From Cetorhinus maximus (lineage: Eukaryota): a stretch of DNA of 64,000 bases. The DNA is taken from NCBI RefSeq assembly GCF_964194155.1, contig NC_135901.1, forward strand, positions 8,618,001-8,682,000, written 5' to 3'. A program made the translations under genes and the position numbers. This document shows positions 604 to 51,730 of the stretch, one piece after another. The notes under the pieces are model-generated. The model ran no database searches. It had not been told where the DNA came from and saw nothing but the letters and a program-made list of their open reading frames with translations. The number at the start of each line of letters is the position of its first letter. The first letter of the stretch is position 1.

Positions 604-1649
604 GTGAGTAAAACATTTTGTTTTCTTTCCCATTGCATTTCTTTTCTAATTCTGGGTTTAAATTGTTGACTTGCAGGAACTGAAGGGAAAGGAGGTGAAT
701 CCAGGGAGGACACTGACTCTGGAAAGGTTGGCCCAGGTCTCTCTCTCTCTCTTAAAGACACTGACATCCTTTGCTCTGTCAGCTTGACATATTTATTATA
801 TGGCTAAAAGAATGGCTCCTTTCCTCATGCTCACAATTAAAGGGGTGGCTTTCCCAGGAGATGGCTGACATTTAAGGGACAGGAAATTAATATAGGACGT
901 AGATATGACTTGTGTTAAATAGTAGACATTTTATATAAATTATTGATGGTACTGTAATATAGCACATTTATTATTATTTCTATTTTTAAAAAATATAGTA
1001 CTGATTAACACACATTTTTAGTCAGTTATATGTACATAGACTAGCATAAACATTTTCAGGTCCCTGTCTCCAGGACATGAAGCCCTGACCATTGATCTCA
1101 GCATGAATCGCTTCTTCAGGAGCATTGGGAAGCCGAATATTAAGTACGGCAAAGTGGGAATGGAGAGTAGGTGTCTGGGATGACTTTTGAATGGGAGAAG
1201 AATGAATGTTTCATAGAAACGAGAATTGCCTGTTCTGAGTTTCTATCCTGTACTGACAGTGATGACTTTTGTAAACTCCTTTTGCAGGATATTAGAAGGA
1301 GAGGATTTGCAGACAGAAATCTCAAATCAAACGTCACATGAAGATCTGACAAAGTCACTTAGTTTATGAGGACCAGAATATCATTGGCCTTTGAATCTAG
1401 AAGGAGAAATGTTTGTCTGTATTGTCTGCTTCAAAAGGTTTTAAACATCAGTGTGACTGGTAAAACATCAAGACACACAGAGCCGAGCCAGAGGTCCTGG
1501 AGCACTGACTGTGGAAAGAACTTTTACTGGTTACCCAGTTGAAAAAACATCTCACAATTCACAGTGAGGAGAGGCTGCACATGTGGCCTGTGTCCAGACG
1601 AGGCTTCAACTGATCGTCGAGCCTGGAGAGGCACAAGGACACCTGCATC

Positions 1650-2660
1650 ATGGAGAAACCATGGAAATGTGGGGACTGTGGGAAGGGACTCAGATCCCCA
1701 TCAGAGCTGGAGATTCATCGACGTAGTCACACCGGGGAGAGACCGTTCACCTGCTCTGAGTGTGGGAAGGGATTCATTGATTCATCTGCACTGCGGAAGC
1801 ATGAGCGAGTTCACAATGGGGAGAGACCGTTCACCTGCTCTGACTGTGGGAAGGGATTCACTAAGTCATCCAACCTGCAGTCACACCAGCGAGTTCACAC
1901 TGGGGAGAAACCATTCTCCTGCTCCAAGTGTGGGAAGAGATTCACTCATTCATCCAACTTGCTAACACACCAACGAGTTCACACTGGGGAGAGGCCATTC
2001 ACCTGCTCTGAGTGTGGGAAGAGATTTATTAACTCATCCCACCTCGTGGCACATGAGCGAATTCACACCGGAGAGAGACCGTTCGCCTGCTCTGAGTGTG
2101 GGAAGGGATTCGGATCCCCATCTAAGCTGGAGATTCACCGACGCAGTCACACCGGAGAGAGGCCGTTCACCTGTTCCACATGTGGGAAGGGATTCACTCA
2201 GTCGTCCCACCTCCTGTCACACCAGCAAATACACACAGGGGAGAGGCCGTTCACCTGCTCTGAGTGTGGGAAGGGCTTCATTGATTCATCCGCACTGCGG
2301 AAGCACAAGCAAGTTCACACTGGGGAGAGACCATTCACCTGCTCTGAGTGTGGGAAGAGATTCAGTCATTCATTCAACTTAGTGACACACCAGCGAGTTC
2401 ACACTGGGGAGAGACCATTCACCTGCTCTGAATGTGGGAAGGGATTTGCTCATTCATCCACCTTGTGGGCTCACCAGCGAGTTCACACTGGGGAGAGACC
2501 TTTCACCTGCTCTGAATGTGGGAAACAATTCAGTGATTCATCCACCCTGCGGAAACACCAGCGAGTTCACAGCAGGGAGAGGCCATTCACCTGCTCTGAC
2601 TTTGGGAAGGGATTCACTCATTCTTCAAACCTGCTGACACACCAGCAAGTTCATGAGTGA
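1650..2660 (+). CDS. Tandem C2H2 zinc-finger protein (ZNF-A), 12 finger units (last lacks 2nd Cys), no KRAB seen
   Basis: 336-aa ORF of 28-aa CxxC-x12-HxxxH repeats with TGERPF linkers; acceptor tttgcag ends at 1287; decayed fingers 1400-1650. Confidence 0.9.
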
Positions 2661-2786
2661 TTACAGAAATTGGATTCTGCTGTTATTGCTGCTGTTAATC
2701 ACATCCAGGATTGAACCATGTTCATTCTCACAGTTAGTGAAGTGGGAGGGTCGGAGGGTTTCATTCTGCTGGACTGGCCGGTCACC

Positions 2787-3869
2787 ATAAGACCACAAGA
2801 TGTAGGAGCAGAAATAGTCCATTCGGCCCATTGAGTCTGCTGCTCTATTCTATGAGATCACGGCTGATCTGATAATCCTCAACTCCAATTTCCTGCCTTT
2901 TCCCCATAACCCTTGATTCCCTTACTGATCTTAAAATCTGTCTATCTCAGCTTTGAATATACTTAACGACCCAACCTCTACAGCCCCCTGCGGTAAAGAA
3001 TTCCGCAGATTCGCTATCCTCTGAGAGAAGAAATTCCTCCTCATCTCCATCTTAAATGGGCGACCCCTTACTCTGAGATTATGCCCTCTGGTCCTACACT
3101 CTCCCATAAGGGGAAAAAAACCTCTCAGCATCTACCCTGTCAAGCCCCCTAAGAATCTTATAGGTTTCAATAAGGCCACCGCTTATTCTTGAGTGAGTAC
3201 AGGCCCAACTTACTCAAACTCTCCTCATAAGAAAATCCCTCCATACCCGGGATTAACCTCGTGAACTTCTCTGAACTGCCTCCAATGCCCCTTAGATAGA
3301 TGGACCAAAACTGTCCACAATATTCCAAACGTGATCCAACAAGTGCCTTGTATAGTTTTAGCAAGACTTCCCTATTTTTATATTCCATTCCCTTTGAAAT
3401 AAAGGCCAACGTTCCATTTGCCTTGCCTATTACCTGCTGAACTTGTATGCTAGCTTTTAGTGATTCATGCACGAGAACCCCCAAATCCCTCTGTGCTGCA
3501 GCTTTCTGCAGTCTTTCTCCATTTAAATAATATTCAGCTCCTCTATTCTTCCTGCCAAAGGAATAACCTCATGTTTTCCCACATTATATTCCATCTGCCA
3601 AGTTTTTGCCCACTCACTTTACCTGTCAAATCCCTCTGTAGACTCTTTGTGTCATCCTCACCACTTGCCTTTCCACCTATTTTTGTGTCATCCACAAACT
3701 TGGTGATAGTACATTCACTTCCTTCATCCAAGTCATTAAAATATATTGTAAATGATTGTGGCCCCAGCACTGATCCCTGTGGCACTCCACTAGTTGCAGT
3801 TTGCCAACCTGAAAATGCCCCATTATCCCAACTCTTTGTCTTTTATTAGTTAGCCAATCTTCTATCCAT
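2787..3869 (-). mobile_element. CR1 LINE 3' fragment (RT C-terminus and 3' tail)
   Basis: PQGSVLGP, KFVDDTK, LLKLYKALV..LEYC and RTRGHNLR peptides; absent from the paralogous flank near 12840. Confidence 0.9.
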
Positions 3870-12839: not shown

Positions 12840-13027
12840 TCGTGAGACCGGCCAGTCCAGCAGAAAGAAATCCTCCGATCCTCCCACTCCAATTGCAGAG
12901 TGAACATGGTTCAGTCCTGGGTGTGATTAACAGCAGCAATAACAGCAGAATCCAACCCCTGTAATTGTTTGTGAAGTCGCTGGTGTCTCAGCAGACTGGA
13001 TAGCTGAGTGAATCCATTCCCACACGG
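12840..13027 (-). pseudogene. ZNF relic: last half finger plus 3' flank fused directly to promoter DNA
   Basis: Reads CGNGFTQLSSLLRHQRLHKQLQGLDSAVIAAVNHTQD*; adjoining 13028-13200 matches 46176-46348. Confidence 0.8.
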
Positions 13028-13400
13028 GGTCTGGGGCCTACCCCAGAAGTTGATCCAGTTCCCAGTCCAGCCGCGGTTTCCATTCCTACCCCGTGCTCAC
13101 AATCTCCTCCCGCCTCCCGAACCGTCTGCTCCTCCTCACTCTGTCACCATGACTGACACTGAGCATGCTCAGAGCGCACACCCACACTGCACCTGCGCAC
13201 TGGGAGCGGGCTCGCCGAACGCCGCCATTTTGGGAGAGCAAGGCGGGTCTTGTTCAGGGAGCCGGGCGCATTGGCGGCCATCTTGGTGAAGGCAGGGGGA
13301 GAGAAGGCGGGGCTTCCTCCCCGGTGACACGCCCGGGTTACCCGGACAACCGGCCGCCGCCATCTTGCGCTGAGGGTTTTCCATCCGGGTCTTTAGTGAA
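13028..13400. promoter_or_regulatory. CpG-rich promoter segment with three YY1-type motifs
   Basis: gccgccatttt, gcggccatctt and gccgccatctt; high CpG density. Confidence 0.65.
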
Positions 13401-13829
13401 GGAATGGAGAATGAGCTGGAGTCAGTTTGAAAACTGTTCAGAGGAAGGTCTGAAATCAGATTTACATCCAGATACCTGTAAGGACAATAAACTTTACATC
13501 AATTATGTGTTTAAAATGAAATCAGAATGCTGGAAACACTCAGTTCTGAAGAAGAATCATATTGGATTGGAAATGTTAAATCTGTTTCTCTCTCTTCACA
13601 GAAGCTGCCAAACCTGCTGAGGATTTCCAGAACTTTTTGTTTTTATTTCAGATTTCCAGCATCCACCGTATTTTACTAAAATTATGTTTCTTTGCAATTT
13701 TTTTGCATAAAGAGTAAAATAATTGTGACCATTTAAATGTACAAATCAGTGATATTTATTTGTGTAACTGAGACTCGACTCAAGTTAACCCGCACCCGAC
13801 AGTGACCTCTCACCTGGCAGCTCACAATG

Positions 13830-14100
13830 CCCGGCTGATTGACGGCAGCTGCGAGCCAATAGGAATAGAGGGGCGGGACTAGAGGACCGAACAGGAGCTG
13901 TTGGGCGTCGAGCCAATCGGAGTGATGGGGATGGGGGAGGGGCGGGTCTAGGCTCGGACTGAAGCATGCGCAGTACTAGAGCCGGAGCTGGAAGAAGGAG
14001 CGGTCGAGTTGAGATCACAAAGGGTGAGAAATGAAGTCGGCGCCTGGAGATTGTGAACCGGGGGGAGCCTGGAAACTGCGCGCGAGCTCAGACGGCGGGA
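13830..14100 (+). promoter_or_regulatory. CpG-rich promoter and probable first exon of ZNF-B
   Basis: Two agccaat boxes, two GC boxes, gcatgcgc NRF1-like site, donor-like g|gtgaga near 14023. Confidence 0.6.
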
Positions 14101-14104
14101 ATAC

Positions 14105-14420
14105 GGTGGCCCAGTGGTAATGTCACTGGGCTAGAAGTCCAGAGACCTTGGGATGTGGGTTCAAGACCCAGCATAGCTGCTGGAATTTAAATTTAGTTAA
14201 TAAATCTATAAAGTTATCATCGATTGTGGTAAATTCCGTCTGGTTCACCAGTGTCCCTTTAGGGAAGGAAATCTGCCGTCCCCACCAAGTCTGGCCTACA
14301 TGTGACGCCAGACCCACAGTGATGTGGTTCACTCTGAATCGGCCCAGCAAGCCACTCAGTTATGAGTGCCATGTTATGTGGGCAATGCCCACATCCTATC
14401 ATAGAATTAAAAAAAAAACA
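14105..14420 (+). mobile_element. tRNA-derived SINE
   Basis: A/B-box head (ggtggcccagtgg..gggttcaagaccc), same body as 21682, 41212 and 53383 copies, A-rich end. Confidence 0.75.
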
Positions 14421-15525: not shown

Positions 15526-15589
15526 GAGCCGAGGAAAGATACTTCATTTGAAGAATAAGGGTTACAAAGTAAAACAAGCCGATTTCCAG

Positions 15590-15820
15590 AATATTAAAAC
15601 TTCAGTCCAGTTACAAAGGTTATTAACATCAGCAGAAACAAACCCAAACTATCAGAATGAACATGGTTCAGTCCTGGATGTGATTAACAGCAGAACCAAC
15701 CGCTGGAGTCTCTGCTGAACTCGCTGGTGTGTCAGCCAGTTGGATGATGGATTAAATCCCTTCTCAGACATGGAGCAGGTGTCCGGCCTCTCCCCAGTGT
15801 GAACTCGCTGCTGTGTGTCT
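15590..15820 (-). pseudogene. ZNF relic: last 1.5 fingers plus conserved 3' flank, antisense to ZNF-B
   Basis: [33 protein letters not shown] followed by gctgttaatcacatccaggactgaaccatg. Confidence 0.8.
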
Positions 15821-16304
15821 TGGAGCTGATGGCTTCCCCCATGCACCAGCTGCTCTTGTCTTTCTATGTGGGTGGGGGCTATGGGAGATTCTACCAAAAA
15901 TTCTGGTTGAATTGCAGATCTATGAAGTCCATCTCCTTTTCCCCTCCTCCACCTCTCACTCTTTTCCCATCGAGGCCAGAGTCTTGTGTCAGCCCAGATT
16001 GGGAGGCAGGTTCCCTTCCCTGAAGGACATTAATGAACCAATTGCGTTTTTATGACAATCCAGCAGTTTTCATGGTCACTTTTTCCTAGTGCCGACCCCA
16101 CAAATTATCGGATTCATTCAGCTCAATTTCACAACCTGTCTTTGTGTTTTTGTGGGTTCTCTTTCACAGTTCTTCATTTCTGTTTTAAATTCATTTTACA
16201 GGCTGTTAGAAGGATTTGCAGTTGGGAAAGTCAAATCAAAATCACATCAAAATCTGCCAGAGTCTCTCGATTCATCAGAACCTGAAGATTGACAGCCTTT
16301 GAAC

Positions 16305-17090
16305 ATGGAAGCAAAAAGCACTGTTCACACCAGGGAGAAACCATGGAAATGTGGGGACTGTGGGAAGGGATTCAGATCTCCGTCTGATCTGGAAACTCAT
16401 CGACGCAGTCACACCGGGGAGAGGCCATTCATCTGCTCCGTGTGTGGGAAGGGATTCACTCAGTTAATCGGTCTTCAGACACACCAGCGACTTCACACTG
16501 GAGAGAGGCCATTCATCTGCGCCGTGTGTGGAAATAGATTCACTCGCTCATCCCACCTGCTGAAACACCAGCAAGTTCACACCAACAAGAGAGAATTTCA
16601 ATGCCCCGACTGTGAAAAGAGCTTTAAAAACCCACATGGACTGAGGGAGCACCAGCGCATTCACACTGCATATGCACCGTTCAGCTGCTCACAGTGTGGG
16701 AAGAGGTTCAGTACATCACCCCACCTTCTGACACACCAACGACTTCACACTGACGAGAGACCTTTTAAATGTCCAGACTGTGGGAAGTGCTTCAAAAGTT
16801 CTATGGATCTGCAATACCATCAACGTGTTCACACTGATGAGAGACCATTCAGATGCTCTCACTGTGGGACTGGGTTCAGGCAATCATCTCACCTCACTGC
16901 ACACCAGCGCACCCACACTGGGGAGAGGCCATTCACCTGCTCCAAGTGTGGAAAAAGATTCACTCAGTCATCCAACCTGCTGACACACCAGCGAATTCAC
17001 ACTGGGGAGAGACCATACACCTGCTCTGAATGTGGGAAGGGATTCACTCGCTTTTCCCACCTGGTGACACACCAGCGAGTTCACAAATGA
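16305..17090 (+). CDS. Tandem C2H2 zinc-finger protein (ZNF-B), 9 fingers
   Basis: Intact ORF from first ATG (track starts at TTG 16299); acceptor ttttacag ends at 16201. Confidence 0.9.
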
Positions 17091-22837: not shown

Positions 22838-23512
22838 TCACTGGTGAATTCGTTGGTGTCTCAGCTGGTGGGATGACGAAGTGAATCCCTTCCCACACAT
22901 AGAGCAGGTGAACGGTCTCTCCCCAGTGTGAGTGCATTGGTGTTTCAACAAGTCACTTTTGCTTTTATAGCTCTTCTCACAGTCAGAACATTTAAAAGGT
23001 CTCTGATCACTGTGAACAAGTTGATGTTCAGTGAGGTTGCATAAGTGAAGGAATCCCTTCCCACACTTGGAGCAGGTGAATGGCCTCTCCCCAGTGTGAA
23101 CTCGCTGGTGTCTCTGTAGGTTGGATACATTATTAAATCTCTCCCCACACACAGAGCAGGGGAATGGCCTCTCCCCAGTGTGAAATTGCTGGTGTGCCAG
23201 CAGGTTGGCTGACTGAGTGAATCCCTTCCCACACTCAGTGCAGGTGAATGGCCTCTTCCCAGTGTGAACTCGCTGGTGTCTCAGCAGATCCATTTTGCTT
23301 TTGAAGTTCTTCTCACAGTCAGAACAGTTAAAAGGTCTCTGATCAGTGTGAACAAGTTGATGTTTTGAAAGATGTGCTGACTGAGCGAATCCTTTCCCAC
23401 ACACAGAGCAGGTGAATGGCCTCTCCCCAGTGTGACTGCATCGATGAGATTCCAGCTGGGATGGAGTATTGAATCCCTTCCCACAGTCCCCGCATTTCCA
23501 TGGTTTCTCCAT
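22838..23512 (-). CDS. Tandem C2H2 zinc-finger protein (ZNF-C), 8 fingers
   Basis: Intact [13 protein letters not shown]..; ATG at 23512 (track starts at TTG 23548); decayed fingers 23520-23700; acceptor at ~23706. Confidence 0.9.
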   Translation of the reverse strand: MEKPWKCGDCGKGFNTPSQLESHRCSHTGERPFTCSVCGKGFAQSAHLSKHQLVHTDQRPFNCSDCEKNFKSKMDLLRHQRVHTGKRPFTCTECGKGFTQSANLLAHQQFHTGERPFPCSVCGERFNNVSNLQRHQRVHTGERPFTCSKCGKGFLHLCNLTEHQLVHSDQRPFKCSDCEKSYKSKSDLLKHQCTHTGERPFTCSMCGKGFTSSSHQLRHQRIHQ

Positions 23513-24939
23513 GGTGCTGTCGTCTTTGTGTGTCTCCAGCTTGGACAATCAGTTGAAGCCTTGTCCACACACAGAACACATGTACAGTTTCTCCCCACTG
23601 TGAATGGTGTGATGTTTTATCAGCTTGTGTGACTGGTTAAAGCTCTTTCCACAGTCAGCGCACTGGAACACTCTCAGTGTCTGTCTCGGTGCTTTTCTAG
23701 TCACACTGTAAAAGGAATTTAAATAGAATTACACAGAATATTCAATGCAGAAACAGGTCATTCTGTTCAACTGGTCCATGCCAGTGTTTATGCTCCACAT
23801 GAGCCTCTCACTTCTCTCTATCAGCATATCATTCTATTCCTTTCCCTCTTGTGTGCAGCTTCTTCTTAACTGCATTCACGCTGTTTTGCCTCAACTTCTC
23901 CCTGTGGCAGCAAGTTCCACACACTCTGGACAAAGACTTTGAACTTAAATAGTACGTTCTTGGGTTGCCGATGAGCACTGCTGCCTCTTTTCTGCATTTC
24001 CTGCAGAGGCTGAATCGTTGCTGATGAGAAAGCGCTGAGCTCTGTAGCTGTACTCCAGTTTTGTCATCTCTGGAATTCAGGTGTATGAGGAAAGTGAGCT
24101 CAGCCTTCTCAGCTCCCAGAATAAAGCTGATACCTTGTGAAGTAACTTCAGACAAGTGCAGTGGATCACAAACAACTATTGTATGAATCATTGTCTGGCT
24201 ATGCTGCTGTAAAACACCTCTGGATGTTAATGGCGCTATGTGAATGAGATGAAAAGTATCTTCAATGAACAGATTGTGAATTGGAATTCTCTAACCTAGA
24301 GGGCTGTGAGTGCTCAGTCATTAAGTATAATCAAGACTGAATTCAGCAGATTTTTGGAGATGGAAGGAACGAAGGGAAATGGGGACAAGGAGGAAAAATG
24401 GAGCTGATGTGGATCAGCCATGATCTTATTGAATGGTGGAACAGGCTCGATGTCCTACACCTGCTCCTATTTGTGATGTTTTTAAGTTGTTCTTGCTGAA
24501 TAGAGAACTCTTTAATTTAGTGGAATGATCAGCAACAACCTAAGATTTTCTTTTGGTTGCATTCATTTTCAGAGAATCTTCGAGGTGCATCGCACAAGAG
24601 GAGGTCATTTGGCCCATCATTCCTGTACTGGCTCTTAGAAAGAGCAGACTTGCTCAGTCCCACATCCCTGTTTTATGTCCGAAACTGTGTAACCTCCTCA
24701 TCAGGTAACTGTCCACCTCCCTTTTAGAATTAGTTATGGAATCAGATCCCACGACCTTATCAGGCAGATCGCGACAACTCTCTGAGGTTTACTCATTACC
24801 CATTATGAAGGTTCAAAGAAGGTTTGAGCAGTGTAAGATGGTTTCAAGAATATCAACATCAAAATATGTTTAATTATTACAATTATTGGCTGGGAGGGCA
24901 GTTCTGTCAGTGTCCAAAAGATACTTGTCTCCTGGTCAC

Positions 24940-25350
24940 TGGGAACAATGAAGCCCCGCCCACTTCCGGTTCCCTCACCAAGATGGCCGCACATGCGCGT
25001 CTTCCACGCATTGCATCTACCAACATGGCGGCCGTTTCCCCACCGTCAGGGCGGCTGTGAACCTGGTCTGTCAATGCAGGGCAAACAGCCTCCTCTTCTC
25101 CGAAGCTTTAAGCCTACACCTGGTGTTAATGAACGTTAACAGCACCATCCCCGCTTCCCCACCACCCCCATTCCACCCCGAGCCGCACAATATCTTTACC
25201 GCCTCCCGGAACCAGCTATGCACCGGCCCGTCTCCGCCATTGTCACCGCGCATGCTCAAAGCACATCTGGTACTGCACCGGCGCATTTGACCCTGTCGTC
25301 ATTGATAGGGGACTTTCTGGCCTGCGGGGAATCTGGGTGAACAGACCGCC
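24940..25350. promoter_or_regulatory. CpG-rich promoter, probably of ZNF-C
   Basis: cacttccggt (ETS), caagatggccg and aacatggcggc (YY1), cgcatgc, cattgatagggg motif shared with 36700 and 46350. Confidence 0.6.
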
Positions 25351-25548
25351 ATTAAACCACGAACTGGCGATGAGAAAAATGTATTAATGCCCAGTCTCTC
25401 CACGTTGATGCGAAGTACAATGACCACCACTTTTCTGTTACTAACTCCAACCACCGGTTAAACCGCTAAATGTTTTCTCACAGTGTTTTCTAAATCCAAT
25501 GCAGGCCTGTCATTTAGAGGGAAAGTTACGAGGCCTCATTTTTTGTCA

Positions 25549-28081: not shown

Positions 28082-29035
28082 TTACTCGTGAACTCGCTGG
28101 TGTTTCAGCAGGTTGGATGAGGTTGTGAATCCCTTCCCACACTCAGAACAGGTGAACAGCTTCTCTCCAGTGTGAATTCGCTGGTGTGTCAGCAAGTTAG
28201 ATGACTGAGTGAACGCCTTCCCACAATCAGGACAGGTGAATGGCCTCTCTCCAGTGTGAACTCGCTGGTGTGTCAGCAGGTGGGATGACCGAGTGAATCC
28301 CTTCCCACAGTCGGAGCAGGTGAACGGCCTCTCTCCAGTGTGAACTCGCTGGTGTACAATCAGATCAGATGAACATGTGAACCCAGTTCCACAGTGAGAG
28401 CACCTGAATGGTCTCTTGTCAGTGTGAACACCCTGATGAAACATCAGTTCCCTGGAACTTTTATAGCACTTCCCACAGTCTGGGCATTTAAAAGGTCTCT
28501 CGTCAGTGTGAACTCGCTGGTGTGTCAGCAGGTGAGATGAGTGAGCAAATCCCTTCCCACACTTTGAGCAGGTGAATGGCCTCTCCCCAGTGTGAACTCG
28601 AAGATGCACAGTGAGGTCAGATAATGTCTTGTGCCCAGCCCCACAGTGAGAGCACCTGAACGGTCTTTCGTCAGAGTGAACACGTTGATGGCCATTCAGT
28701 TCCCGGGGACTTTTATAGCACTTCCCGCAGTCTGGACATTTGAAAGGTCTCTCGTCAGTGTGAACTTGTCGGTGTTTCAGCAGGGTGGATGAACAAGTGA
28801 ATCCCTTCCCACACTCAGAGCAGGTGAACGGCCTCTCCCCAGTGTGAACTCACTGATGATTTTCCAGCTCTGATGGGTAATTAAATCCCTTCCCACAGTC
28901 CCCACATTTCCATAGTTTCTCCCCAGTGTGACTGCATTTACGTTTGGGCAGGCCAGATGATCTGCTGAAGCCTCGTCCACACACACAACACGTGTACGAT
29001 TTCTCTCCACTGTGAACGATGCTTTTTCCTTCCAT
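28082..29035 (-). pseudogene. ZNF-D, 11 finger units, single nonsense codon (CGA>TGA at 28850-28852)
   Basis: Track ORFs 28850-29041 and 28082-28609 share a frame; the intervening 240 nt translate without stops. Confidence 0.85.
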
Positions 29036-29569
29036 GTTCAAAATCCAATGATATTCAGGTTACAATAAATGGGGCAACTTCTTCAGATCCTGATGTGATG
29101 TTTTGTTTCTGTTTCCCAACTGCAATTCCTCCCCTTCTAATATCCTGTGAAATTGATTTAAAACAGAAAAAATGGAGTGAGAGAGGACCCACAAAAACAC
29201 AAAGGTAGGCTGTGAAATTGAGCTGAATGAATCTGGTAATTTGTGGGGCCGGCACTAGGAAAAAGCGACCATGAAAACTGCTGGATTGTCGTAAAAACCC
29301 AACTGGTTCACTCATGTCCTTCAGGGAAGGGAATCTGCCACCCATTCTGGGCCTATACAAGACACTGGCCTAGATTGGAGAAGATAACAAGAGAGAGAAG
29401 GGTCAGGTGGGAGGGGCAAGGGTTGAAAAAGAAGGATTACAACTCAACCAGAGATCTCACAGAACCTCCAAAGCCCTCAGCCTCCACCACTTAGCAGGAC
29501 AAGGATAGTAAGTGAATGTGAACACCATCACCTCCAAATACCTCTCCAAGTCACACACCATCCTGACTT

Positions 29570-30192: not shown

Positions 30193-30221
30193 AAAGAGAA
30201 ATAGAAATGTGGTGAAATATA

Positions 30222-30338: not shown

Positions 30339-31812
30339 ATAAGCTGTTTAAGTGGGGTGGGACAGGTGGAGCTGGATAGAGGGCCAGTGATAGGTGGAGG
30401 CAAAGGAGAGATTGCCAAAGATGTCATAAACAAAAGGACAAAGGGGTGTTGACGGTGGTGATATTATCTAAAGGATGCGCTAATGGGGACATTAAGGGTA
30501 GAAAGCAGGACGATCAAGTGACAGATGGCCCTAGTGGGGTGGGGGGGAAGTGATCGAAATAGGCTAAAAGGTGTAGATAAAACAATGGATGGAAATACAT
30601 TTTAAAAATAATAATAGAAATAGGTGGGAAAAGAAAAATATATATATAAAAAAATAATAATTATCAGAAAAAAGGAGATCAAAAAGGGGGTGGGGATGGA
30701 GGAGAGAGTTCATGATCTGAAGTTGTTGAACTCAATGTTAAGTCGGGAAGGTTGTAAAGTGCCTAATCAGAAGATGAGGTGCTGTTCCTCCAGTTTGCGT
30801 TGAGCTTCACTGGAACATTGCAGCAGGCCAAGGATGGACATGTGGGCATGAGAGCAGGGTGGTGTGTTTGAAATGGTAAGCGACAGGAAGGTCTGGGTCA
30901 TGCAACCTCGTCCACACACAGAGCATGTGTACGGTTTCTCTCCGCTGTGAATGGTACTTTTTTCTTCCATGTTCAAAATCCAAAGCGGTCACCCAGTCTG
31001 CGTTTGGTCTCTCCAATGTAGAGGAGACCGCATTGGGAGCAGTGAATCGAGTAGACCAAATTGAGGGAAGTGCAAGTGAAATGCTGCTTCACTTGAAAGG
31101 AGTGTTTGGGCCCTTGGATGTTGAGGAGGGAGGAAGTAAAAGGGCAGGTGTTGCACCTTCTGCGGTTGCATGGGAAGGTGCCGTGGGAGGGGGTTGAGGT
31201 GTAAGGGGTGATGGAGGAGTGAACCAGGGTGTCCCGGAGGGAATGGTCCCTACGGAATGCTGACAGGGGTGAAGGGAGGATGTGTTTGGTGGTGGCATCA
31301 TGCTAGAGCTGGCGGAAATGGATCATCCTTCCAGTGAAGCTCAACGCAAACCGGAGGAACAGCACCTCATCTTCCGATTAGGCACTTTACAGCCTTCCAG
31401 ACTTAACACTGCGTTCAACAACTTCAGATCATGAACTCTCTCCTCCATCCTCACCCCCTTTTTGATCCCCTTTTTTCTAATAATTATTATTTTTTTCATA
31501 TATATATTTTTCTTTTTCCACCTATTTCTATTATTATTTTTAAAATTTATTTCCATTCATTGTTTTATCTCCACCTTTTAGCCTATTTCAATCCCTTTCC
31601 CCCCACCCCACCCCCACTAGGGCCATCTGTCACTTGCTCATTCTGCTTTCTACCCTTAATGTCACCATTAGCACATCCTTTAGCTAATGTCACCACCGTC
31701 AACACTCCTTTGACCTTTTGTTTATGACATCTTTGGCAATCTCTCCTTTGCCTCCACCTATCACTGGCCCTCTATCCAGCTCCACCTGTCCCAACCCCCT
31801 TAAACAGCTTAT

Positions 31813-33030: not shown

Positions 33031-33254
33031 AGATTCTGTGATTTATAATACAATGATTCATAGTAAACATGATATGATAGAATCAAGAGCATGGATGGTG
33101 GCCATTCAGCCCATTGTCCCTGTACTGTCCCTGAAAATGTTACCAATCTGTCCCACTCCCCTGCTCTTTTCTGATTGCCCTCCAAATCTTTCCTAATTAA
33201 ATAAAAGTCCAAATCACTTTTGAAAGTTACTATTGAATCTGCTTCTACCAGTCA

Positions 33255-34295
33255 TTCCGACAATGAAAACAATGACTTCAGTCTTCCCAATATTTAATTG
33301 GAGGAAATTTCTGGACATCCACCACTGAATATCAGACAAACAGTCTGATAATTTACCAAGAGTGGAGAAGTTGAGAGAGGTGGTGGTGAGGTAGAGCTGG
33401 GAGGTGTCAGTGTAAATGTGATAAGTGACAGTGTTTTCAGATGATGTCATTGTGTGGAACAGGTTGATGAGAAATAAGAGACCAAGGTGGATCCTTTGGG
33501 GACACCAGAGGTGACTGTGTGAGTGGGAAGGGAAGACATTACAAGTGATTCTCTGGCTATGATTAGATGGAGAAGAATGGAACCAGGAGAGAGCAGCCCC
33601 ACCCAGCTGGACGACAGGGGAGAGGCGAAGGTGCAGAATGATGTGGTCAACAATGTCAAAGGCTGCAGACAGGTCAAGGATGAGAAGGGAGAATTTATCT
33701 TTGTCACAGTCACAAAGGGTGTCATTTGTGACTTTGATAAGAGCTGTTTCAGTACTGTGACAGCGGCAGAAACCTGATTGGAGGGATTCAAACATGGAGT
33801 TCTGGGAAAAATGGGCACAGTTTTGGGAGGTGACAACATGTTCAAGGACTTTGGAGAAGAAAGGGAGGCTGGAGATGGGGCAGTAGTTTAGAAGGATGGT
33901 GGGGTCAAGGATTTATTTTTTGAGAAGGGTATAATGATGGCAGATTTGAAGGTGAGAGGGACAGTACCTGACAGAGAAAACTGTTAACATAGTCAGTGAA
34001 CATGGACAAGTTGAGTGATCAGTAGTTTAGTGGGAGTAGGGTTGATGAAGGAGGCGGGTTTCATGGACAAGATGAGCTCTGAGAGGGCCTGAGGTGAGAT
34101 GGGAGGGAAACTACAGAACGATGTGAGTTCAGGGGTCAGGTAACAGGGAACTTTAGAGGCAGTTCAGCCCCGTGGGCTAGTGGAAGGGAAGCAGTAGAGG
34201 CAGCTGATCAGATTGTCTTAATCTTAGTGACAAAGAAGCTCCATGAGCTCCTCACACTTGTTGTTGAAGGTGAGGATGGAGGAGACGGGGAGAGG
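33255..34295 (-). mobile_element. L2-clade LINE RT fragment
   Basis: QSGF..HSTETALIKVTND..LDLSAAFD; GVPKGS. Confidence 0.9.
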
Positions 34296-34502: not shown

Positions 34503-35540
34503 TTACTTATGAATTCGCTGGTGTCTCAGCCGGTGGGATGAGGTAGTGAATCCCTTCCCACACTGCGAGCAGGTGAATGGCCTCTCCCCTGTGTGAACTC
34601 GCTGGTGTGTCAGCAGGCTGGATGAGATAGTGAATCCCTTCCCACACTTGGAGCAGGTGAATGGTCTCTCCCCGCTGTGAATTCGTTGATGTGTCAGCAG
34701 GCTGGATGATTGAGTGAATCCCTTCCCACACTCAGAGCAGGTGAATGGTCTCTCCCTTGTGTGAATTCGCTGATGGTCAGTGAGTTGAGATGATTGTCTG
34801 AATCCAGTCCCACACTGAGAGCACTTAAATGGTCTTTCATCAGTGTGAATACGCTGATGGTACATCAGTTCCCAGGAACTTTTAAAGCACTTCCCACAGT
34901 CCAAGCATTTAAAAGGTCTCTTATCAGTGTGAACTCGCTGGTGTGTCAGCAGGGTGGATGAGGTAGTGAATCCCTTCCCACACGTGGAGCAGGTGAATGG
35001 CCTCTCCCCAGTGTGAATTCGCTGATGCTTCAGCAGGTCGGATGACTGAGTGAATCCCTTCCCACACTCGGAGCAGGTGAACGGCTTCTCCCCAGTGTGA
35101 ATTCGCTGGTGTACAGTGAGTTGGGATGATCGCCTGAACCCAGTCCCGCAATGGGAGCATTTAAATGGTCTCTCGTCAGTGTGAACACGTTGATGGTACA
35201 TCAGTTCCCAGGAACTTTTATAGCATTTCCCGCAGTCTGGGCATTTAAAAGGCCTCTCTTCACTGTGAACTCGCTGGTGTCTCAGCAGGTTGGATGAAAG
35301 AGTAAATCCCTTCCCACACATGGAGCAGGTGAACGGCCTCTCCCCAGTGTGACTGCGCTGATGCTTTTCCAGCTCAGCTGGAGATTTGAATCCCTTCCCA
35401 CAGTCCTCACATTTCCACGGTTTCTCCCCAGTGTTACTGCACTTGTGTTTCCACAGGCCAGTTGATTGCCTGAAGCCTCGTCCACACGCAGAACACGTGT
35501 ACAGTTTCTCTCCACTGTGAATGGTGCTTTTTTCTTCCAT
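34503..35540 (-). CDS. Tandem C2H2 zinc-finger protein (ZNF-E), 12 units (first degenerate)
   Basis: Intact ORF, ATG at 35540 (track starts at TTG 35546); acceptor cacag at ~35650; internal four-finger duplication. Confidence 0.92.
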
Positions 35541-36049
35541 GTTCAAAATCCAATGATACTCAAGTTCCGATCAACTGGACGACTCTGTCAGATTCTGATG
35601 TGATGTTTGGTTTGAGTTTCCTGACTGTAAATCCTCCTCTTCTAATACCCTGTGAAATTGATTTAAAACAGAAAAAAGGGAGTGAGAGAGAACCCACAAA
35701 AACATAAAGGCAGGTTGGGGAACTGAGCTGAATGAATCTGGTCATTTGTGGAATTGACATGAGGAAAAAGTGACCATGTAAACTGCTGGATTGTCATAAA
35801 AACCCAACTGGTTCACTAATGTCCTTCAGGGAAGGGAACCGGAAACCCAGACTGGGTCTACACAAGACTCTGGTCTCCATGGGAGGAGAGAGAGAGAGAG
35901 GTGGGAGATGGAGGGGGTGAAGAAATGTTTTATACATCTACAACTCATCCAGGAATTTCACAGAATCCCCAGAGCCTCAACCACCACCACCTAGAAGGAC
36001 CAGGGTAACAGGTGTCAGTGAACACCATCACCTCCAACTCACACACTAT

Positions 36050-36539: not shown

Positions 36540-36780
36540 TTGAATTCCGGCCCACCCCCAGCTCCAATTCCTCTCGTGCGTCCACAATCTCCTCCGGCCT
36601 CCTGAGCCGCCTGTTCCACCTCAGTCCCTCTCCACAAGCTGCACTGAGCATGCTCTGAGCACAGCCCGGCCCCCACGCCGGCGATCTGGGTTCCTGTTCT
36701 CATTGATAGGGGGATTTCTGACGCACAGGGCATTCTGGGTAATCCTACCTCCATCGAGACCAATCAGTGAACGGGCAATT
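36540..36780. promoter_or_regulatory. Probable promoter of ZNF-E
   Basis: gcactgagcatgctc, cattgataggggg, ZNF143/Staf-like gcattctgggtaa, ccaatca. Confidence 0.55.
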
Positions 36781-36792
36781 TTTTTTCCCAGT

Positions 36793-38975: not shown

Positions 38976-39350
38976 GTTTGTGTGTCTCAGCATTTTTCCA
39001 GTCACACCTGAAATCTTCTCCCATAGACAGTTCAGACAAAGCTTTTCCTTCCCACATTCAAAGAGCGATGATATTCAGGTCCGGATGAAACGAGTGACTC
39101 TGTCAGGTCTTGATGTGATATTTGGTTTGAGTCTCCCGTCTGTCAATCCTCCACTTCCAGTAACCTGCAAGTTTACGGAAACCATCACTGTAAATCCAGG
39201 ATAGAAATTGAAGAGAGAAACATTTCTTTTGATTTAGTTTGCTGTGTGTAAATCCTCCCCTTCTCACCCCCTGTAAAAGGAGTTTCCAAAAATCCATCCC
39301 TGTCAGTCAAGGATAGAAATACACAATATTCTCTCCTCCTGCTGACAGGC
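38976..39350 (-). pseudogene. ZNF relic: duplicated acceptor modules and leader, finger array missing
   Basis: Leader gagactcaaaccaaatatcacatcaagacctgacagagtcac..tgaatatcatc; paralogous to 47031-47392. Confidence 0.7.
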
Positions 39351-39354
39351 ATAT

Positions 39355-39760
39355 GGATAACCGCGCATGCGCCCTGCTGCACATTGGCCACTATAAAGAT
39401 GGCGGCCGTTAACCCGGGCCTGTGACCCAGAGGAGTTCAAGCGATCTCGCCCCGTCCCGGGTAAACAGGACCGGTAGTTTCTTAGTCGGGGTTTGAGGCC
39501 TCCACCGAGTATTTATGAAGCCTCTCCGCCCACTCTCCTCGCTCTAATCCTCTCCACCTACCCAGCGGCTCCATTAGTCAACCGCAGTCCATTATTTCTC
39601 GCTTCTCCGGCTAACGCCAGGCACAATCTGCACTGCGCATGCCCTAGTCAGAGACCGCATTGCGCATGCTCCGGTTATGCCCAGCAGTGCGCATGCGCAG
39701 GAAGCTCCTGTGGTCTGGATAGGATACATTCTACCCCGCGGAGAATGCTGGGTAAACATC
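39355..39760. promoter_or_regulatory. CpG-rich promoter
   Basis: Four (t)gcgcatgc NRF1 motifs, aagatggcggc YY1, attgg, ZNF143-like gaatgctgggtaa. Confidence 0.7.
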
Positions 39761-40164
39761 CCACCATTGAAAGATGGTCCTGTTGAAAATTATACTCTTT
39801 GTTTTCCGATTTCGGTTGGAGCCATTAGGGCAAAGATGTAAACTTATTAAAATCAAATCAGCTAACCTGCTCCTCGCTAATAAGAATGTTCTGATTGTGC
39901 AACAGATCCTTTGAACTTTTAAAGCTCGAGTGCTAGCAGGTGGGAAAATAGAATAACTCCCTCCGCACAAGTGAAGTATCTGAATGGTGTTCCTCCAGTG
40001 TGACTGAGCTGTTGTGTCAATAAATGGGATAACCGAGAGAATCCATTTCCACATTCAGCTGGTGAATGATATTTTGTGGTGAGATTTTACTCATGAGTTT
40101 CAAGCTCAGACAAGGATCCAAAACTCTTATGATAATGAGATCCACACTCTTAACATTATCCAGT

Positions 40165-42040: not shown

Positions 42041-42044
42041 TTCA

Positions 42045-44544: not shown

Positions 44545-45219
44545 TCACTTATGAATTTGCTGATGTGTCAGCAGGTGGGATGACCGAGTGTATCCCTTCC
44601 CACACACGGAGCACGTGAATGGCCTCTCCCCAGTATGAGAACGTTCATGTAACAGCAGGCTAAAGGACTGAATGAATCCCTTCCCACACATGGAGCAGGT
44701 GAACGGCCTCTCCCCAGTGTGAGTGCGTTGGTGTGCAGTGAGGCTGGATGACTGTCTGAAGCTCTTTCTACAGTAGGTGCAGCTGAATGGTTTCTCCTCA
44801 GTGTGAATTCGCTGGTGTGTCAGAAGGCTGGATGAATGAGTGAATCCCTTTCCACACACAGAACAGGCGAACGGCCTCTCCCCAGTGTGAACTCGCTTGT
44901 GTGCATTGAGGTCGGATGAACACCTGAACCTCCTTCCACAGTGAGAGCAGCTGAACGGCCTCTCCTCAGTGTGAATTCGCTGGTGTAACTGCAGGCTAAA
45001 TGACCGTGTGAATCCCTTCCCTCACATGGAGCAGCTGAAGGGTCTCTTCCCTGTGTGAATTTGTTGGTGTGCCATGAGGCAGGTTGACTTAGTAAATCCC
45101 TTCCCACACATAGAGCAGGTGAACGGCCTCTCCCCGGTGTGAATGCGTCGATGAGCTTCCAGCCGGGATGGATAATAAAATCCCTTCCCACAGTCCCCAC
45201 ATTTCCAAGGTTTCTCCAT
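44545..45219 (-). pseudogene. ZNF-F, 8 finger units, single nonsense codon (TGT>TGA at 45022-45024)
   Basis: Track ORFs 45022-45219 and 44545-44859 are in frame with no other stop; decayed fingers and leader 45220-45541. Confidence 0.85.
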
Positions 45220-45969
45220 GGTGTGGTGTCTGGCCTTTGTGTCTCCCCAGTTGGATGATCAGTTGAAGCCTCATCCACACAGAAAATACGTGTATGGTTT
45301 CTCCCCACTGTGAATGGTGTGATGTTTTTTGTTAACTGGTTAAAGCTCTTTCCACAGTCAGTGCACTGGAACACTCTCACTCCAGCTGAAATATTCTCCC
45401 ACAGACAGCAGAGAAACATTTCTCCTTCCACATTCAAAGGCTGATGATTTTCAGGTCCTGATGAATGGAAAGACTCAGTTAAATCTTGATGTGAAGTTTT
45501 TATTTAAGTTTCCCGTCTATAAATCCTCCCCTTCCAATATTCTGTAAAAGGAATTTCGAGAATTCTTAATTGTAAGTCCACAATAGAAATTCAAACCAAT
45601 TTTAGTTTCTATGGAACATTTTTCCCCTTCTTGTTCCCCCAAAGCTGTAAATCCCCGTCCCACAGACTCTCCCTCCTCCCTGGGCTGAAATCCAAACCCA
45701 TCTCACCATCTCCACCATTTCTTTCCTCCACCCCCAGTTTACTCCCTCCCTCTCCTCTGCCTGGGTTAATTTCTCCAGCTCCTGTCTGCAGACTGACAAT
45801 AAAATCAAAGAGTCTTATTAAGGTTTTGGGGCCTCCAGCGGGTGTTTCTGAATCCTCCCCGCCCACCTCCCAGGGTTTCCTTCCTTCCCACAGATCAGAT
45901 CCTCATTGATTTGAGCCCAAAGTGTAACCTCTTGTTTATTGTCTCCCCTCCCCCATCCTCTGATGTGAA

Positions 45970-46410: not shown

Positions 46411-47030
46411 GAGTCAGTGATCATAAAGTTTTTTTTTGTCTGGAATGCACTGCCTGGGAGGGTGGTGGAGGCGAGTTGTCTCACGTCCTTTAAAAAGTAC
46501 TTGGATGAGCACTTGGCACATCATAACATTCAAGGCTGTGGGACAAGTGCTGGTAAATGGGGGTAGGTCAGGTGTTTCTCACGTGTTGGCGCTGACTCGA
46601 TGGGCCGAAGGGCCTGTTCTGCACTTTGTGATTCTGTGATTAAGCTCCACCCTGCATTTTCTCTATTCTACTAATGCCTCCGCTGATTTGCTCCCCTTGT
46701 ACCTGCTAAAATCCTCTCTTTTCCTTCTCATCGTATCCTGAATATCTCTGGTCATCCATGGTTCTCTGGGCTTGTTACTCCTTCTTATCACCCTAGAGGA
46801 AACATGTTGAGCCTGTACCCTTCCCATTTCCTTTTCGAATGCCCCCCACTGCTCTTCTGTAGATTTCCCCACAAGTAGCTGTTCCTAGTCTACCTTGGCC
46901 AGCTCCTGCTTTATTTTACTAAAATCTGCTCTCCCCCAATCCAAAACATTTTTTTTTTGCAACTTGTCTATTTTGTCCAAAACAAGCTTAAATTGTACCA
47001 TGTTGTGGTCACTATCACTAAAATGCTCCC

Positions 47031-47392
47031 CACATGCGCGTTCATCCCTTTCCCTGTCAGCAGGAGGAGAGTATATTGTGCATGTCTATCCTGGACTGAC
47101 AGGGATGGATTTTGAAAACTCTTTTTACAGGGGGTTAAAAGGGGAGGATTTACACACACCAAACGCAAACCAAGAGAAATGTATTTTTCCTCTCAATGTC
47201 TATCCTGGACTGACAGTCATGGATTTTGGAAATTTCTTTTCCAGGGTATTAGAGGCAGAGGATTGACGGACGGGAAACTCAAACCAAACATCACATCAAG
47301 ATCTGACAGAGTCATTTGATTCATCAGGACCTGAATATCATCAAACTTTTAACGTGGAAGGTAAACAACTTATCTGTGTGCAAAGATTTCAA
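47031..47392 (+). pseudogene. ZNF relic: two tandem acceptor modules and leader, cut by CR1
   Basis: tctatcctggactgacag..cag occurs twice; leader NSNQTSHQDLTESFDSSGPEYH. Confidence 0.7.
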
Positions 47393-49592: not shown

Positions 49593-49873
49593 TCTGAAGG
49601 ATATTAGTGAACCAGTTGGGTTTTTAGGACAATCCAGCAGTTTTCATGGTCACTTTTCCCTGGTGCCGGCCCCACAAATTACCAGATTCGTTCAGCTCAA
49701 TTTCACAACCTGTTTTTGCGGGTTCTCTCTCACTCCCTTTTTCTGTTTTAAATCAATTTCACAGGGTATTAGAAGGAGAGGATTTGCAGTCGGGAAACAC
49801 AAACCAAACATCACATCAGAACCTGACAGAGTCGCCCAATTTGTCATAACCTAAATATCATTGGATTTTGAAC

Positions 49874-51079
49874 ATGGAAGGAAAAAGCACCGTTCACAGT
49901 GAGGAGAAACCGTACATGTGTTCTGTGTGTGGACGAGGCTTCAGCCAATCATCTGACCTGTCAGAACATAAATGCCGTCACAATGGGATGAAACCATGGA
50001 AATGTGGGGAATGTGGGAAGGGATTCAAATCCCCGTCTGACCTGGAAAGTCATTGGCGCACTCACACTGGGGAGAAACCGTTCACCTGCTCCGAGTGTGG
50101 GAAGGGATTCACTCGTTCGTCCTATCTGCTGATACACCAGCGAGTTCACACTGGGGAGAGGCCATTCACCTGCTCGAAGTGTGGGAAGGGATTCATTCAG
50201 TCATCCAACCTGTGGACACACCAGCGAGTTCACACTGAGGAGAGACCTTTTAAATGTCCGGACTGCGGGAAGTGCTATAAAGGTTCCATGGAACTGATGC
50301 ACCATCAACGTGTTCACACTGATGAGAGACCATTCAGGTGCTCTCACTGCGGGACTGGGTTCAGGTGGTTGTCTCAACTCACTGCGCACAAGCACAGTCA
50401 CACTGGGGAGAGGCTGTTCACCTGCTCTGTGTGTGGGAAGGGATTCACTCAGTCATCCAAACTGCTGAGACATCAGCATGGGCACAGTGATGAGAGGCCA
50501 TTCACCTGCTCCATGTGTGGGAAGGGATTCATTCAGCAATCCCATCTGCTGACACACCAGCGAGTTCACACAGACGAGAGACCTTTTAAATGCCCAGACT
50601 GTGGGAAGTGTTTTAAAAGCTCCCAGGACCTGATGTCTCATCAAAGTGTTCACACTGGGGAGAGGCCGTTCAGGTGCTCTCACTGCAGGACTGGGTTCAA
50701 GCAATCATCTCAACTCATTGTACACCAGCGAATTTACATTGGGGAGTGGCTGTTCACCTGCCCTGAGTGTGGGAAGGGATTCACTCAGTTATCTACCCTG
50801 CCAACACACCACCGGGTTCACACTGGGGGGCAACCATTCATCTGCTTTGAATGTGGGAAGGGATTCACCCACCCATCCAACCTTCTGAGACACCAGCGAG
50901 TTCATACTGGGGAGAGGCCGTTCACCTGCTCTGAATGTGGGAAGGGTTTTACCCAGTCATCCAACCTGCTGACACACCAGCGAGTTCACACTGGGGAGAG
51001 ACCATTTACATGCTCTGAATGTGGGAAGGGGTTTGCTTATTTATCTACACTGCAGAGATACCAGCAAGTTCACAAGTAA
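49874..51079 (+). CDS. Tandem C2H2 zinc-finger protein (ZNF-G), 14 units (10th and 14th have His>Tyr)
   Basis: Intact ORF, ATG at 49874 (track starts at TTG 49868); acceptor cacag ends at 49764. Confidence 0.9.
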
Positions 51080-51730
51080 CGACAATGGTTGGATTTTGCT
51101 GTTAATCACATCCAGGACTGAATTATGTGTATTGGGGTCTGTTTCTGAAGATGTTAATAAACTCCAGCCCAGTTATTCGGGCTGATATTGTAAATAAAGG
51201 TCAATTAGATTAGCTTTGTGTTAAACACACAGTGTCTTGAGTCTTTTCAATATTTCTAACCTAGGTTAGTTCCTTCTGAAGTGCTCTCTCTCACCCCTGT
51301 CCCCTCCATCCTCACTTCCAACAACAAGTGTGAGGAGCTCATGGAGCTTCTTTGTCACTAAGATTGAGACAATCTGATCAGCTGCCTCTGCTGCTTCCTT
51401 CCCTCCCTCATCGGCAGTGGCTGTGATTATTTGAATTAGATTTTTACATAATCACTTGGTAAGTGATCAGGTGTCACTGAACATTTGACAGAAAATTGTT
51501 CCATTATCATCCTCACAGTGACTGTATCTTGCAGACCAAGTGATTCTATCTACACCAGCCTTTCTGGAGAAGATCACCAGAGAAGAGTGAAGACATTACA
51601 GTCCACAGCCCAGCTCATAGTGGTGCACATATCTGATAAATCCAATTAAAATGCAGAGTATATCGGTTTGCTACAGGTTTATCAATATACATTGATTATC
51701 AATCATACGAAATAGGAATTATAGTTCCTG

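What the first reader, a model, noticed from the sequence alone, without database searches (positions are those of the whole stretch)
1288..51130. KRAB-less ZNF cluster built from one repeated cassette: candidate shark counterpart of KRAB-ZNF / FiNZ-ZNF transposon control
Seen: about 12 ZNF loci in 51 kb (5 intact, 2 single-nonsense, 5 relics) with divergent recognition helices, shared promoter, acceptor and flanks, no visible KRAB/SCAN/BTB exon, and dense transposons around them. Known: tetrapod KRAB-ZNFs and cyprinid FiNZ-ZNFs form such clusters and repress transposons. Inference: this may be an independent chondrichthyan family with an unknown effector.
Basis: partly seen in the sequence, partly recalled or inferred. 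Interest (0 to 1): 0.7.

Follow-up and report, generated by a model that had tools for sequence, protein, structure and literature searches.

The report
Fingers-only shark zinc-finger gene family
This shark DNA holds seven copies and six remnants of a gene family with over a thousand copies, mostly on one chromosome, whose proteins are predicted to be DNA-gripping zinc fingers with no silencing domain; they likely bind repeated DNA such as transposons, but that role is untested.

Summary
The cluster is real: 5 intact C2H2 arrays, 2 with one nonsense codon, and 6 relics. It is a slice of a family with 1,250 exact copies of its first-finger motif, concentrated on contig C24 and spread by 14-50 kb segmental duplications. 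There is probably no hidden effector exon. In 67 of 71 intact genes the shared leader between acceptor and fingers has in-frame stops, it drifts like non-coding DNA, and the ORFs start at an ATG next to the fingers. No KRAB match lies on C24. The arrays are under purifying selection (dN/dS 0.3-0.4). Base-contact residues vary most between older paralogues, but positive selection is not established because synonymous sites are saturated. Repeats are no denser here than in control DNA. There are several promoter types, not one. A distinctive first finger (WKC...PSxLE) recurs in seven shark genera and is the best candidate partner-binding surface. Transposon control is plausible and untested; splicing and expression were not shown. 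Shark ZNF expansion has been counted in print; I found no paper describing this architecture. This scan noted the same family earlier on other stretches of this genome.

The parts
1288..2660 (+). Z1: acceptor (exon start 1288), decayed leader, ATG 1650, 336 aa, 11 fingers plus a degenerate twelfth; intact
12846..13201 (-). Relic R1: promoter type A fused directly to a last finger and 3' flank (internal deletion); 13022-13201 is 96% identical to 46168-46347
13021..13480 (.). CpG island (promoter type A end plus YY1-like motifs; motif label recalled)
13741..14180 (+). CpG island type B, likely promoter of Z2; same-strand matches upstream of 15 of 77 family loci, 0 of 39 controls
15587..15864 (-). 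Relic R2: last finger and 3' flank
16202..17090 (+). Z2: acceptor 16202, ATG 16305, 261 aa, 9 fingers; intact
22838..23725 (-). Z3: ATG 23512, 224 aa, 8 fingers; intact ORF; two decayed fingers upstream; shared acceptor not found (repeat at 23729-23920)
24881..25400 (.). CpG island upstream of Z3 (type D, weak likeness to type A)
28082..29144 (-). Z4: acceptor 29144, ATG 29035, single TGA at codon 62 (28852) in the WKC finger
30881..30983 (-). Relic R3: MEEK start and pre-finger only, inside a 679-bp inverted repeat pair (30144-30815 / 31329-32007)
34503..35649 (-). Z5: acceptor 35649, ATG 35540, 345 aa, 11 fingers plus a C2HC-like pre-finger; intact
36567..36786 (-). Diverged type A promoter upstream of Z5 (68% identical to 46228-46436)
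39005..39369 (-). Relic R4: double acceptor and leader without fingers
39301..39780 (.). CpG island type E upstream of R4; same-strand matches upstream of 38 of 77 family loci, 0 of 39 controls
39925..40155 (-). Relic R5: three decayed fingers
44545..45541 (-). Z6: acceptor 45541, ATG 45219, 8 fingers, single TGA at codon 66 (45024); otherwise identical to an intact copy in L096
45941..46460 (.). CpG island type A upstream of Z6; same-strand matches upstream of 29 of 77 family loci (16 opposite), 0 of 39 controls
47033..47365 (+). Relic R6: double acceptor and leader without fingers, head-to-head with Z6
49765..51079 (+). Z7: acceptor 49765, ATG 49874, 401 aa, 12 regular fingers plus degenerate ones; intact
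33217..33912 (-). Reverse transcriptase fragment (RVT_1, E 1.4e-6, just under the curated cut-off); a second one at 3546-3842(-)

Best explanation
This is a slice of a shark gene family, multiplied by segmental duplication on one chromosome, whose genes are predicted to make proteins of C2H2 fingers only and likely act as sequence-specific binders of repeat-derived DNA, likely using finger surfaces, above all the conserved first finger, in place of an effector domain. Shown: over 1,000 copies, blocks of 14-50 kb copied along C24, about half of sampled copies broken, a closed reading frame upstream of the ATG, purifying selection on the finger core, and base-contact residues as the most variable positions between older paralogues. 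Inferred: a non-coding first exon from a CpG-island promoter is spliced to one exon holding the decayed leader, the ATG and the whole array (0.8); the proteins bind diverse DNA sites (0.85); the main targets are transposon-derived (about 0.45, by analogy with KRAB- and FiNZ-ZNFs); the first finger docks a partner (about 0.25).
For: 1,250 exact first-finger motifs, 0 for the reversed control; at least 100 of 155 copies of a rarer variant on C24. Window 13-64 kb is repeated at C24 1.71-1.76 Mb (94-99.8%), and parts at 5.41-5.44 and 12.54-12.56 Mb. 86 of 154 assessable loci intact; 67 of 71 with in-frame stops between acceptor and first finger; 78 of 86 with an in-frame ATG after the last stop; 35 of 39 MEKP-type starts have A at -3 and G at +4; 67 of 86 end one residue after the last finger. 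In recent duplicates the leader differs 0.038/0.040/0.038 by codon phase, the ORF 0.017/0.017/0.042. dN/dS 0.29-0.38 overall, 0.06-0.08 at Zn ligands and core. KRAB: 4 genome-wide matches, none on C24. WKC finger in 16 of 33 named chondrichthyan hits, 0 of 59 other hits; it is first or second finger in 24 of 35 untargeted arrays. In older pairs first-finger positions +1, +2, +5, +8 have dN/dS 0.28 against 1.29 and 1.07 in finger 2 and the last finger.
Against: No target site, binding or repression was tested. Contact residues in recent duplicates are under purifying, not positive, selection (0.33-0.41). The deeper excess (1.3-2.9) rests on fourfold sites that are saturated (0.26 between non-homologous fingers); in the one unsaturated bin (23 pairs) only finger 2 exceeds the neutral rate. 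Repeats are not enriched here. The first finger's own -1, +3 and +6 residues vary, as in a DNA-reading finger. Most loci were picked by the first-finger motif, which inflates conservation of its first ten codons. 4 of 71 genes do have an open frame from the acceptor, 15 of 86 had no recognisable acceptor, and 8 of 86 have no ATG. Splice junctions were not observed.
Confidence: 0.5

Rival explanations
1. The proteins are finger-only DNA binders with no recruited partner. They act by occupying sites (blocking other factors or marking repeats), or they regulate ordinary genes; transposons are not their main target.
For: No room for an effector at either end. No repeat enrichment. Contact residues are conserved among recent duplicates. 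Conserved ZNF-only regulators are common in vertebrates (PMC3971581, passages).
Against: Copy number above 1,000 with rapid turnover matches the families tied to transposons, and ZNF and retroelement counts correlate across animals (PMC10547256, sections 4 and 10). The first finger keeps a conserved non-contact surface.
Confidence: 0.27
2. The copy number is mostly a by-product of an unstable, duplication-prone chromosome; only a minority of copies matter and the rest drift. The uniform first finger reflects shared ancestry or gene conversion at gene 5' ends.
For: 68 of 154 assessable loci are broken. Blocks are copied with their repeats and dead genes. Z6's stop is its only difference from an intact copy. 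The leader diverges more slowly than fourfold sites.
Against: Purifying selection persists across 31 recent duplicate pairs. In the first-finger helix, synonymous changes outnumber amino-acid changes at +1, +2, +8 and +9, which conversion alone would not give. The finger is kept in seven shark genera.
Confidence: 0.15
3. One reading: a KRAB/FiNZ-like family with a small unknown effector domain encoded by an upstream exon and spliced onto the fingers.
For: The layout (upstream promoter, intron, one finger exon) resembles KRAB- and FiNZ-ZNF genes, and the leader looks like an old acidic coding stretch with two or three decayed fingers. 4 of 71 genes are open from the acceptor. Emerson and Thomas note that missing N-terminal domains may be small unannotated exons (PMC2604467, passage).
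Against: 67 of 71 closed; long leaders fall 9/11/16 across the three phases; TGA 17 codons before the first finger in 37 of 53 genes leaves no good acceptor before the ATG. Annotated shark homologues show unrelated N-termini and no KRAB.
Confidence: 0.08

Closest known systems
Cyprinid FiNZ-ZNF family on zebrafish chromosome 4q (Wells et al. 2023, PMC10547256; sections 4 and 10, passages and two supplement files seen)
   Same: Hundreds to thousands of lineage-specific tandem C2H2 genes, mostly on one chromosome, with all fingers in one exon and no KRAB.
   Different: FiNZ genes carry a conserved 28-aa acidic domain in an upstream coding exon; here the frame upstream of the fingers is closed. 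Positive selection and transposon derepression are shown for FiNZ and not here.
Tetrapod KRAB-ZNF clusters (PMC4592553 passage; PMC2604467 passages)
   Same: Clustered birth-and-death evolution, TGE(K/R)P linkers, variation concentrated at helix positions -1, 3 and 6.
   Different: No KRAB match on C24; no linker region or other domain; TRIM28 recruitment has no handle in the sequence.
ZNF-only / poly-ZF genes without N-terminal domain (Liu et al. 2014, PMC3971581; Emerson and Thomas 2009, PMC2604467; passages seen)
   Same: Tandem C2H2 arrays with no KRAB, SCAN or BTB; lineage-specific expansions occur in many vertebrates.
   Different: Those sets are defined by a failed domain search and may hide exons. 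Here the absence follows from stops in a shared decayed leader, and the family has one founder layout with a signature first finger.
Shark ZNF expansions counted in print (Wells et al. supplement: 1,851 ZNF ORFs in Carcharodon, 3,586 in Scyliorhinus canicula; PMC11979771 passage on catshark zinc-finger clusters on chromosomes 13 and 17)
   Same: Very probably the same family, since catshark proteins carry the same leader and first finger.
   Different: These sources give counts or a passing mention only; no gene structure, effector analysis or function.
Drosophila 'CGEx' N-terminal C2H2 dimerisation fingers (bioRxiv 10.1101/2025.09.04.674178; abstract and outline seen)
   Same: Precedent for a special N-terminal finger serving protein contact.
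   Different: Those are single fingers with an added beta-strand, specific to Diptera; the shark finger is part of the tandem array and has variable base-contact residues.

Membership tests
KRAB-ZNF | N-terminal KRAB domain (PF01352) in upstream exon(s) | tested here: not met
   4 matches genome-wide at E<=1 (150 of 152 candidates scored), none on C24; none in 234 window ORFs
KRAB-ZNF | Tandem C2H2 array in a single exon, genes in duplicated clusters | tested here: met
KRAB-ZNF | TRIM28/KAP1 recruitment and transposon binding | not testable with these tools
   needs biochemistry and ChIP
FiNZ-ZNF | 28-aa FiNZ domain in an upstream coding exon, in frame with the fingers | tested here: not met
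   Indirect: no FiNZ model was run, but 67 of 71 intact genes have in-frame stops between the shared acceptor and the fingers
FiNZ-ZNF | Most members on one chromosome | tested here: met
   at least 100 of 155 copies of a motif variant on C24, 55 not listed
FiNZ-ZNF | Positive selection on base-contact residues | tested here: inconclusive
   0.33-0.41 in recent duplicates; 1.3-2.9 in older pairs with saturated synonymous sites
FiNZ-ZNF | Transposon derepression on knockdown | not testable with these tools
   needs embryos or cell lines
SCAN-ZNF / BTB-ZNF | N-terminal SCAN or BTB domain | tested here: not met
   No match in 234 window ORFs of 64 aa or more; none of the 150 scored SCAN matches (of 4,987 candidates) is on C24; BTB was not searched genome-wide
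ZNF-only poly-ZF genes | Five or more tandem C2H2 fingers and no accessory domain | tested here: met
ZNF-only poly-ZF genes | Transcript and protein start confirmed by cDNA or proteomics | not tested
   no splice junction was obtained; see Tried and rejected

The most novel reading that the evidence does not exclude
Sharks silence transposons with a chromosome-scale, thousand-member zinc-finger family that lost its N-terminal domain and uses its conserved first finger (WKC..PSxLE..RR) as the docking site for chromatin machinery: a vertebrate solution independent of KRAB and FiNZ, with the effector built into the DNA-reading array.
Probability: 0.17. Interest if true: 0.8.

Novelty: new variant of a known kind. 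Interest (0 to 1): 0.48.

Why it matters
Large ZNF families are thought to need an effector domain (KRAB, FiNZ, SCAN, BTB) to act on chromatin. A family of over a thousand copies that is kept under selection while lacking any such domain tests whether DNA occupancy or a finger surface is enough. It also fills the cartilaginous-fish gap in the ZNF-transposon story. The shared sequence around the ATG would allow one knockdown reagent to hit hundreds of members, as was done for FiNZ. Against this: big lineage-specific ZNF clusters are common, the shark expansion has been counted before, and no function is shown here.

Tried and rejected
Expression: no RNA holder listed. Contigs of four runs whose RNA status is a guess (X1, X2, X4, X6) cover the finger exons at 88% likeness or more, but repeats swamped the joint tables and copies cannot be told apart. 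Two contigs begin matching at a predicted acceptor (49763; 47130 with 222 other letters before it), a weak hint only. No splice junction was obtained, so exon 1 is unmapped.

Stop-codon readthrough into the shared tail (LQGLDSAVIAAVNHIQD) as a hidden C-terminal effector: rejected. The tail shows no codon-phase bias (0.047/0.047/0.061; 1 of 31 pairs dropped), carries stops in many copies, and the stop is TGA in 58, TAA in 25 and TAG in 3 of 86; 7 of 86 genes run into it.

The cassette as a mobile element: not supported, since copies share tens of kb of flank with neighbours and repeats.

First deep dN/dS estimate (2.3-2.7): set aside, because pairs were chosen on third-position similarity. Repeated with independent pair choice and a saturation check.

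Strand-biased upstream block search gave no clean conserved exon. ESM Atlas and PDB returned only generic C2H2 proteins. No fold or complex prediction was run, and no binding-site prediction (no recognition-code model on hand). TRIM28/TRIM33 were not searched. Searches were script failures, repeated.

Literature: six searches (terms combining zinc finger, shark, elasmobranch, catshark, one shark species name, FiNZ, KRAB, ZNF-only, KRAB-less) found no paper on this family's structure. The library lacks most subscription papers, and three supplement files of PMC10547256 were not searched.
Full report
OBSERVATION. A six-frame scan finds 69 C2H2 motifs in seven arrays, against 5 motifs in 390 kb of control DNA from other contigs. 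Five arrays are intact (Z1, Z2, Z3, Z5, Z7; 224-401 aa). Z4 and Z6 each carry one TGA. Self-comparison gives six relics. The genes share an acceptor (found in 6 of 7), a leader, a first finger of the form WKC(G/E)DCGKGFxxPSxLExHxxxH and a 3' flank. Their -1/2/3/6 residues differ from gene to gene.

TWO QUALIFICATIONS. There is no single promoter. Several CpG-island types lie upstream; three of them match upstream of 29, 15 and 38 of 77 family loci on the gene's strand and in 0 of 39 control stretches. Transposons are not unusually dense: repeats shared with the control set cover 43% of the non-exon DNA here and 40 +/- 20% of the controls, left out one at a time. That measure uses only 390 kb as its library and would miss repeats confined to C24.

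SCALE AND SPREAD. The window is G000:C24:8,618,001-8,682,000. A 29-base first-finger motif has 1,250 exact copies, the reversed control none. Of 155 copies of a rarer variant, the 100 listed all lie on C24 between 0.5 and 52 Mb; 55 were not listed. Four of the window's seven genes carry the exact motif (read), so about 2,000 loci is a rough extrapolation. Bases 13,022-64,000 recur at C24 1.71-1.76 Mb at 94-99.8% identity, and 14-kb parts recur at 5.41-5.44 and 12.54-12.56 Mb. Recent spread is therefore by multi-gene blocks. The 99.8% part could be a misplaced haplotype; the 94-97% parts are unlikely to be. Z6's stop is its only difference from its copy in L096.

NO ROOM FOR AN EFFECTOR EXON. 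I collected 192 first-finger loci (176 unique, 154 with a terminus in view, 86 intact). The sample was chosen by motif or by likeness to Z7 and includes near-duplicates, so it is not random. Of 71 intact genes with a recognisable acceptor, 67 have in-frame stops between acceptor and first finger; the four exceptions are one gene and one three-member subfamily. Long leaders fall 9, 11 and 16 into the three phases. An in-frame ATG follows the last stop in 78 of 86 genes: 39 start MEKP four codons before the first finger (35 with A at -3 and G at +4), 33 start MEGK-like, 6 elsewhere, and 8 have none. A TGA sits 17 codons upstream in 37 of 53 non-MEGK genes. 67 of 86 proteins end one residue after the last finger. 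In 31 recent duplicate pairs the leader differs equally in all codon phases (0.038, 0.040, 0.038; 4 pairs dropped for indels), the ORF does not (0.017, 0.017, 0.042). The leader still reads as an acidic stretch and two or three decayed fingers, so the founder probably had a longer N-terminus that is now 5' UTR (inference). KRAB has 4 matches genome-wide, none on C24. None of 150 scored SCAN matches is on C24. Pfam finds no effector in 234 other window ORFs. Splicing itself was not observed.

RANGE. A search with the first 45 residues of Z3 returned 91 proteins. Of 33 named chondrichthyan proteins carry the WKC finger by pattern, from Scyliorhinus, Mustelus, Heterodontus, Chiloscyllium, Hemiscyllium, Cetorhinus and Pristiophorus; the 3 ray proteins do not show it, and 0 of 59 other proteins carry the fuller motif. 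Several also show the same leader or tail. Their annotated N-termini are unrelated to each other and none has a KRAB hit. The family is thus shark-wide; three ray hits are too few to exclude rays.

SELECTION. Among 31 recent duplicate pairs dN/dS is 0.29-0.38, 0.06-0.08 at zinc ligands and core, and 0.33-0.41 at base-contact residues. The intact copies are therefore maintained as proteins, with no sign of an ongoing race at this depth. Among older paralogues, positions -1, 3 and 6 diverge 1.36 (1.02-1.75), 1.85 (1.49-2.34) and 2.13 (1.52-3.08) times as fast as fourfold sites in finger 1, finger 2 and the last finger, with pairs chosen on the other fingers. However, fourfold sites differ at 0.26 even between non-homologous fingers, so they are saturated. 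In the one unsaturated bin (23 pairs) contact divergence is 0.065, 0.152 and 0.080 against 0.076, 0.074 and 0.093. Diversifying selection is suggested and not established.

THE FIRST FINGER. It opens 24 of 35 arrays that were not picked by motif, as first or second finger; several of the other 11 are downstream pieces of broken genes. Its helix is net acidic (-1.1 against +0.3). Positions +1, +2, +5 and +8 have dN/dS 0.28 against 1.29 and 1.07 in the other two fingers, while its -1, +3 and +6 vary. These positions lie outside the search motif. This fits a finger that reads DNA and also keeps a fixed surface. A docking role is my inference; C2H2 fingers that serve protein contact are known (bioRxiv 10.1101/2025.09.04.674178, abstract). 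Shared ancestry with structural constraint at the array's start would also explain it.

HOW IT MOST LIKELY WORKS. A CpG-island promoter drives a transcript (inferred) whose last exon holds the dead leader, the ATG and 5-15 fingers (shown). The product binds DNA through varied helices (established for this fold; not tested here). Blocks duplicate, copies decay or change specificity (shown in part). By analogy with KRAB- and FiNZ-ZNFs and the ZNF-retroelement correlation (PMC10547256, sections 4 and 10) the targets are likely repeat-derived, at about 45%. Any partner must be recruited by the fingers.

COMPARISON. It works like FiNZ- and KRAB-ZNF clusters in layout and turnover but is a member of neither: the defining N-terminal domain is absent. 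It belongs with ZNF-only poly-ZF genes (PMC3971581, PMC2604467; passages). Shark ZNF numbers are in print (1,851 and 3,586 ORFs in two species; PMC10547256 supplement), and catshark zinc-finger clusters get one sentence in PMC11979771. Six searches found no account of the family's structure. Earlier notes of this scan describe the same family on other stretches; I had reached the finger-only reading before that call.

VERDICT. A real, shark-wide, finger-only ZNF family; a new variant of a known kind. The anatomy is well supported, the transposon role is an untested analogy. Interest 0.48.

Noticed in passing
G000:C34:9,123,034, 9,346,918 and 9,397,348 (L210-L216): The three best KRAB matches in the genome lie upstream of exons with 5-10 near-identical fingers: apparently three PRDM9-like paralogues within 300 kb (label recalled from architecture; SET domain not checked).
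   Followed up: partly
genome-wide: 4,987 SCAN-like candidates scattered over most large contigs, probably gag capsids of an LTR retrotransposon family (recalled). One lies 3 kb from a family gene at C22:38.86 Mb but on the opposite strand.
   Followed up: no
L083 (G000:C24:33,890,900-33,900,899), also L019, L021, L029, L069: Some genes have tandem copies of the WKC-type first finger, five in a row in L083, often with longer linkers.
   Followed up: no
window 30144-32007: A 679-bp inverted repeat pair (93% identical) encloses relic R3; the duplicate block at C24 1.728 Mb lacks window 28869-31358.
   Followed up: no
window 25549-25797, 43896-44071, 54936-55165: Short palindromic elements of one repeat family, MITE-like.
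   Followed up: no
window 54037-57963: A degenerate tandem triplication of a unit of about 1.5 kb, with low repeat cover and no fingers.
   Followed up: no
window 39005-39369 and 47033-47365: Relics R4 and R6 have the acceptor block two or three times in tandem, about 110 bp apart.
   Followed up: no
L049, L051, L062, L065: In a few genes the two upstream decayed fingers are still open in frame with the array, although the frame is closed further up.
   Followed up: partly
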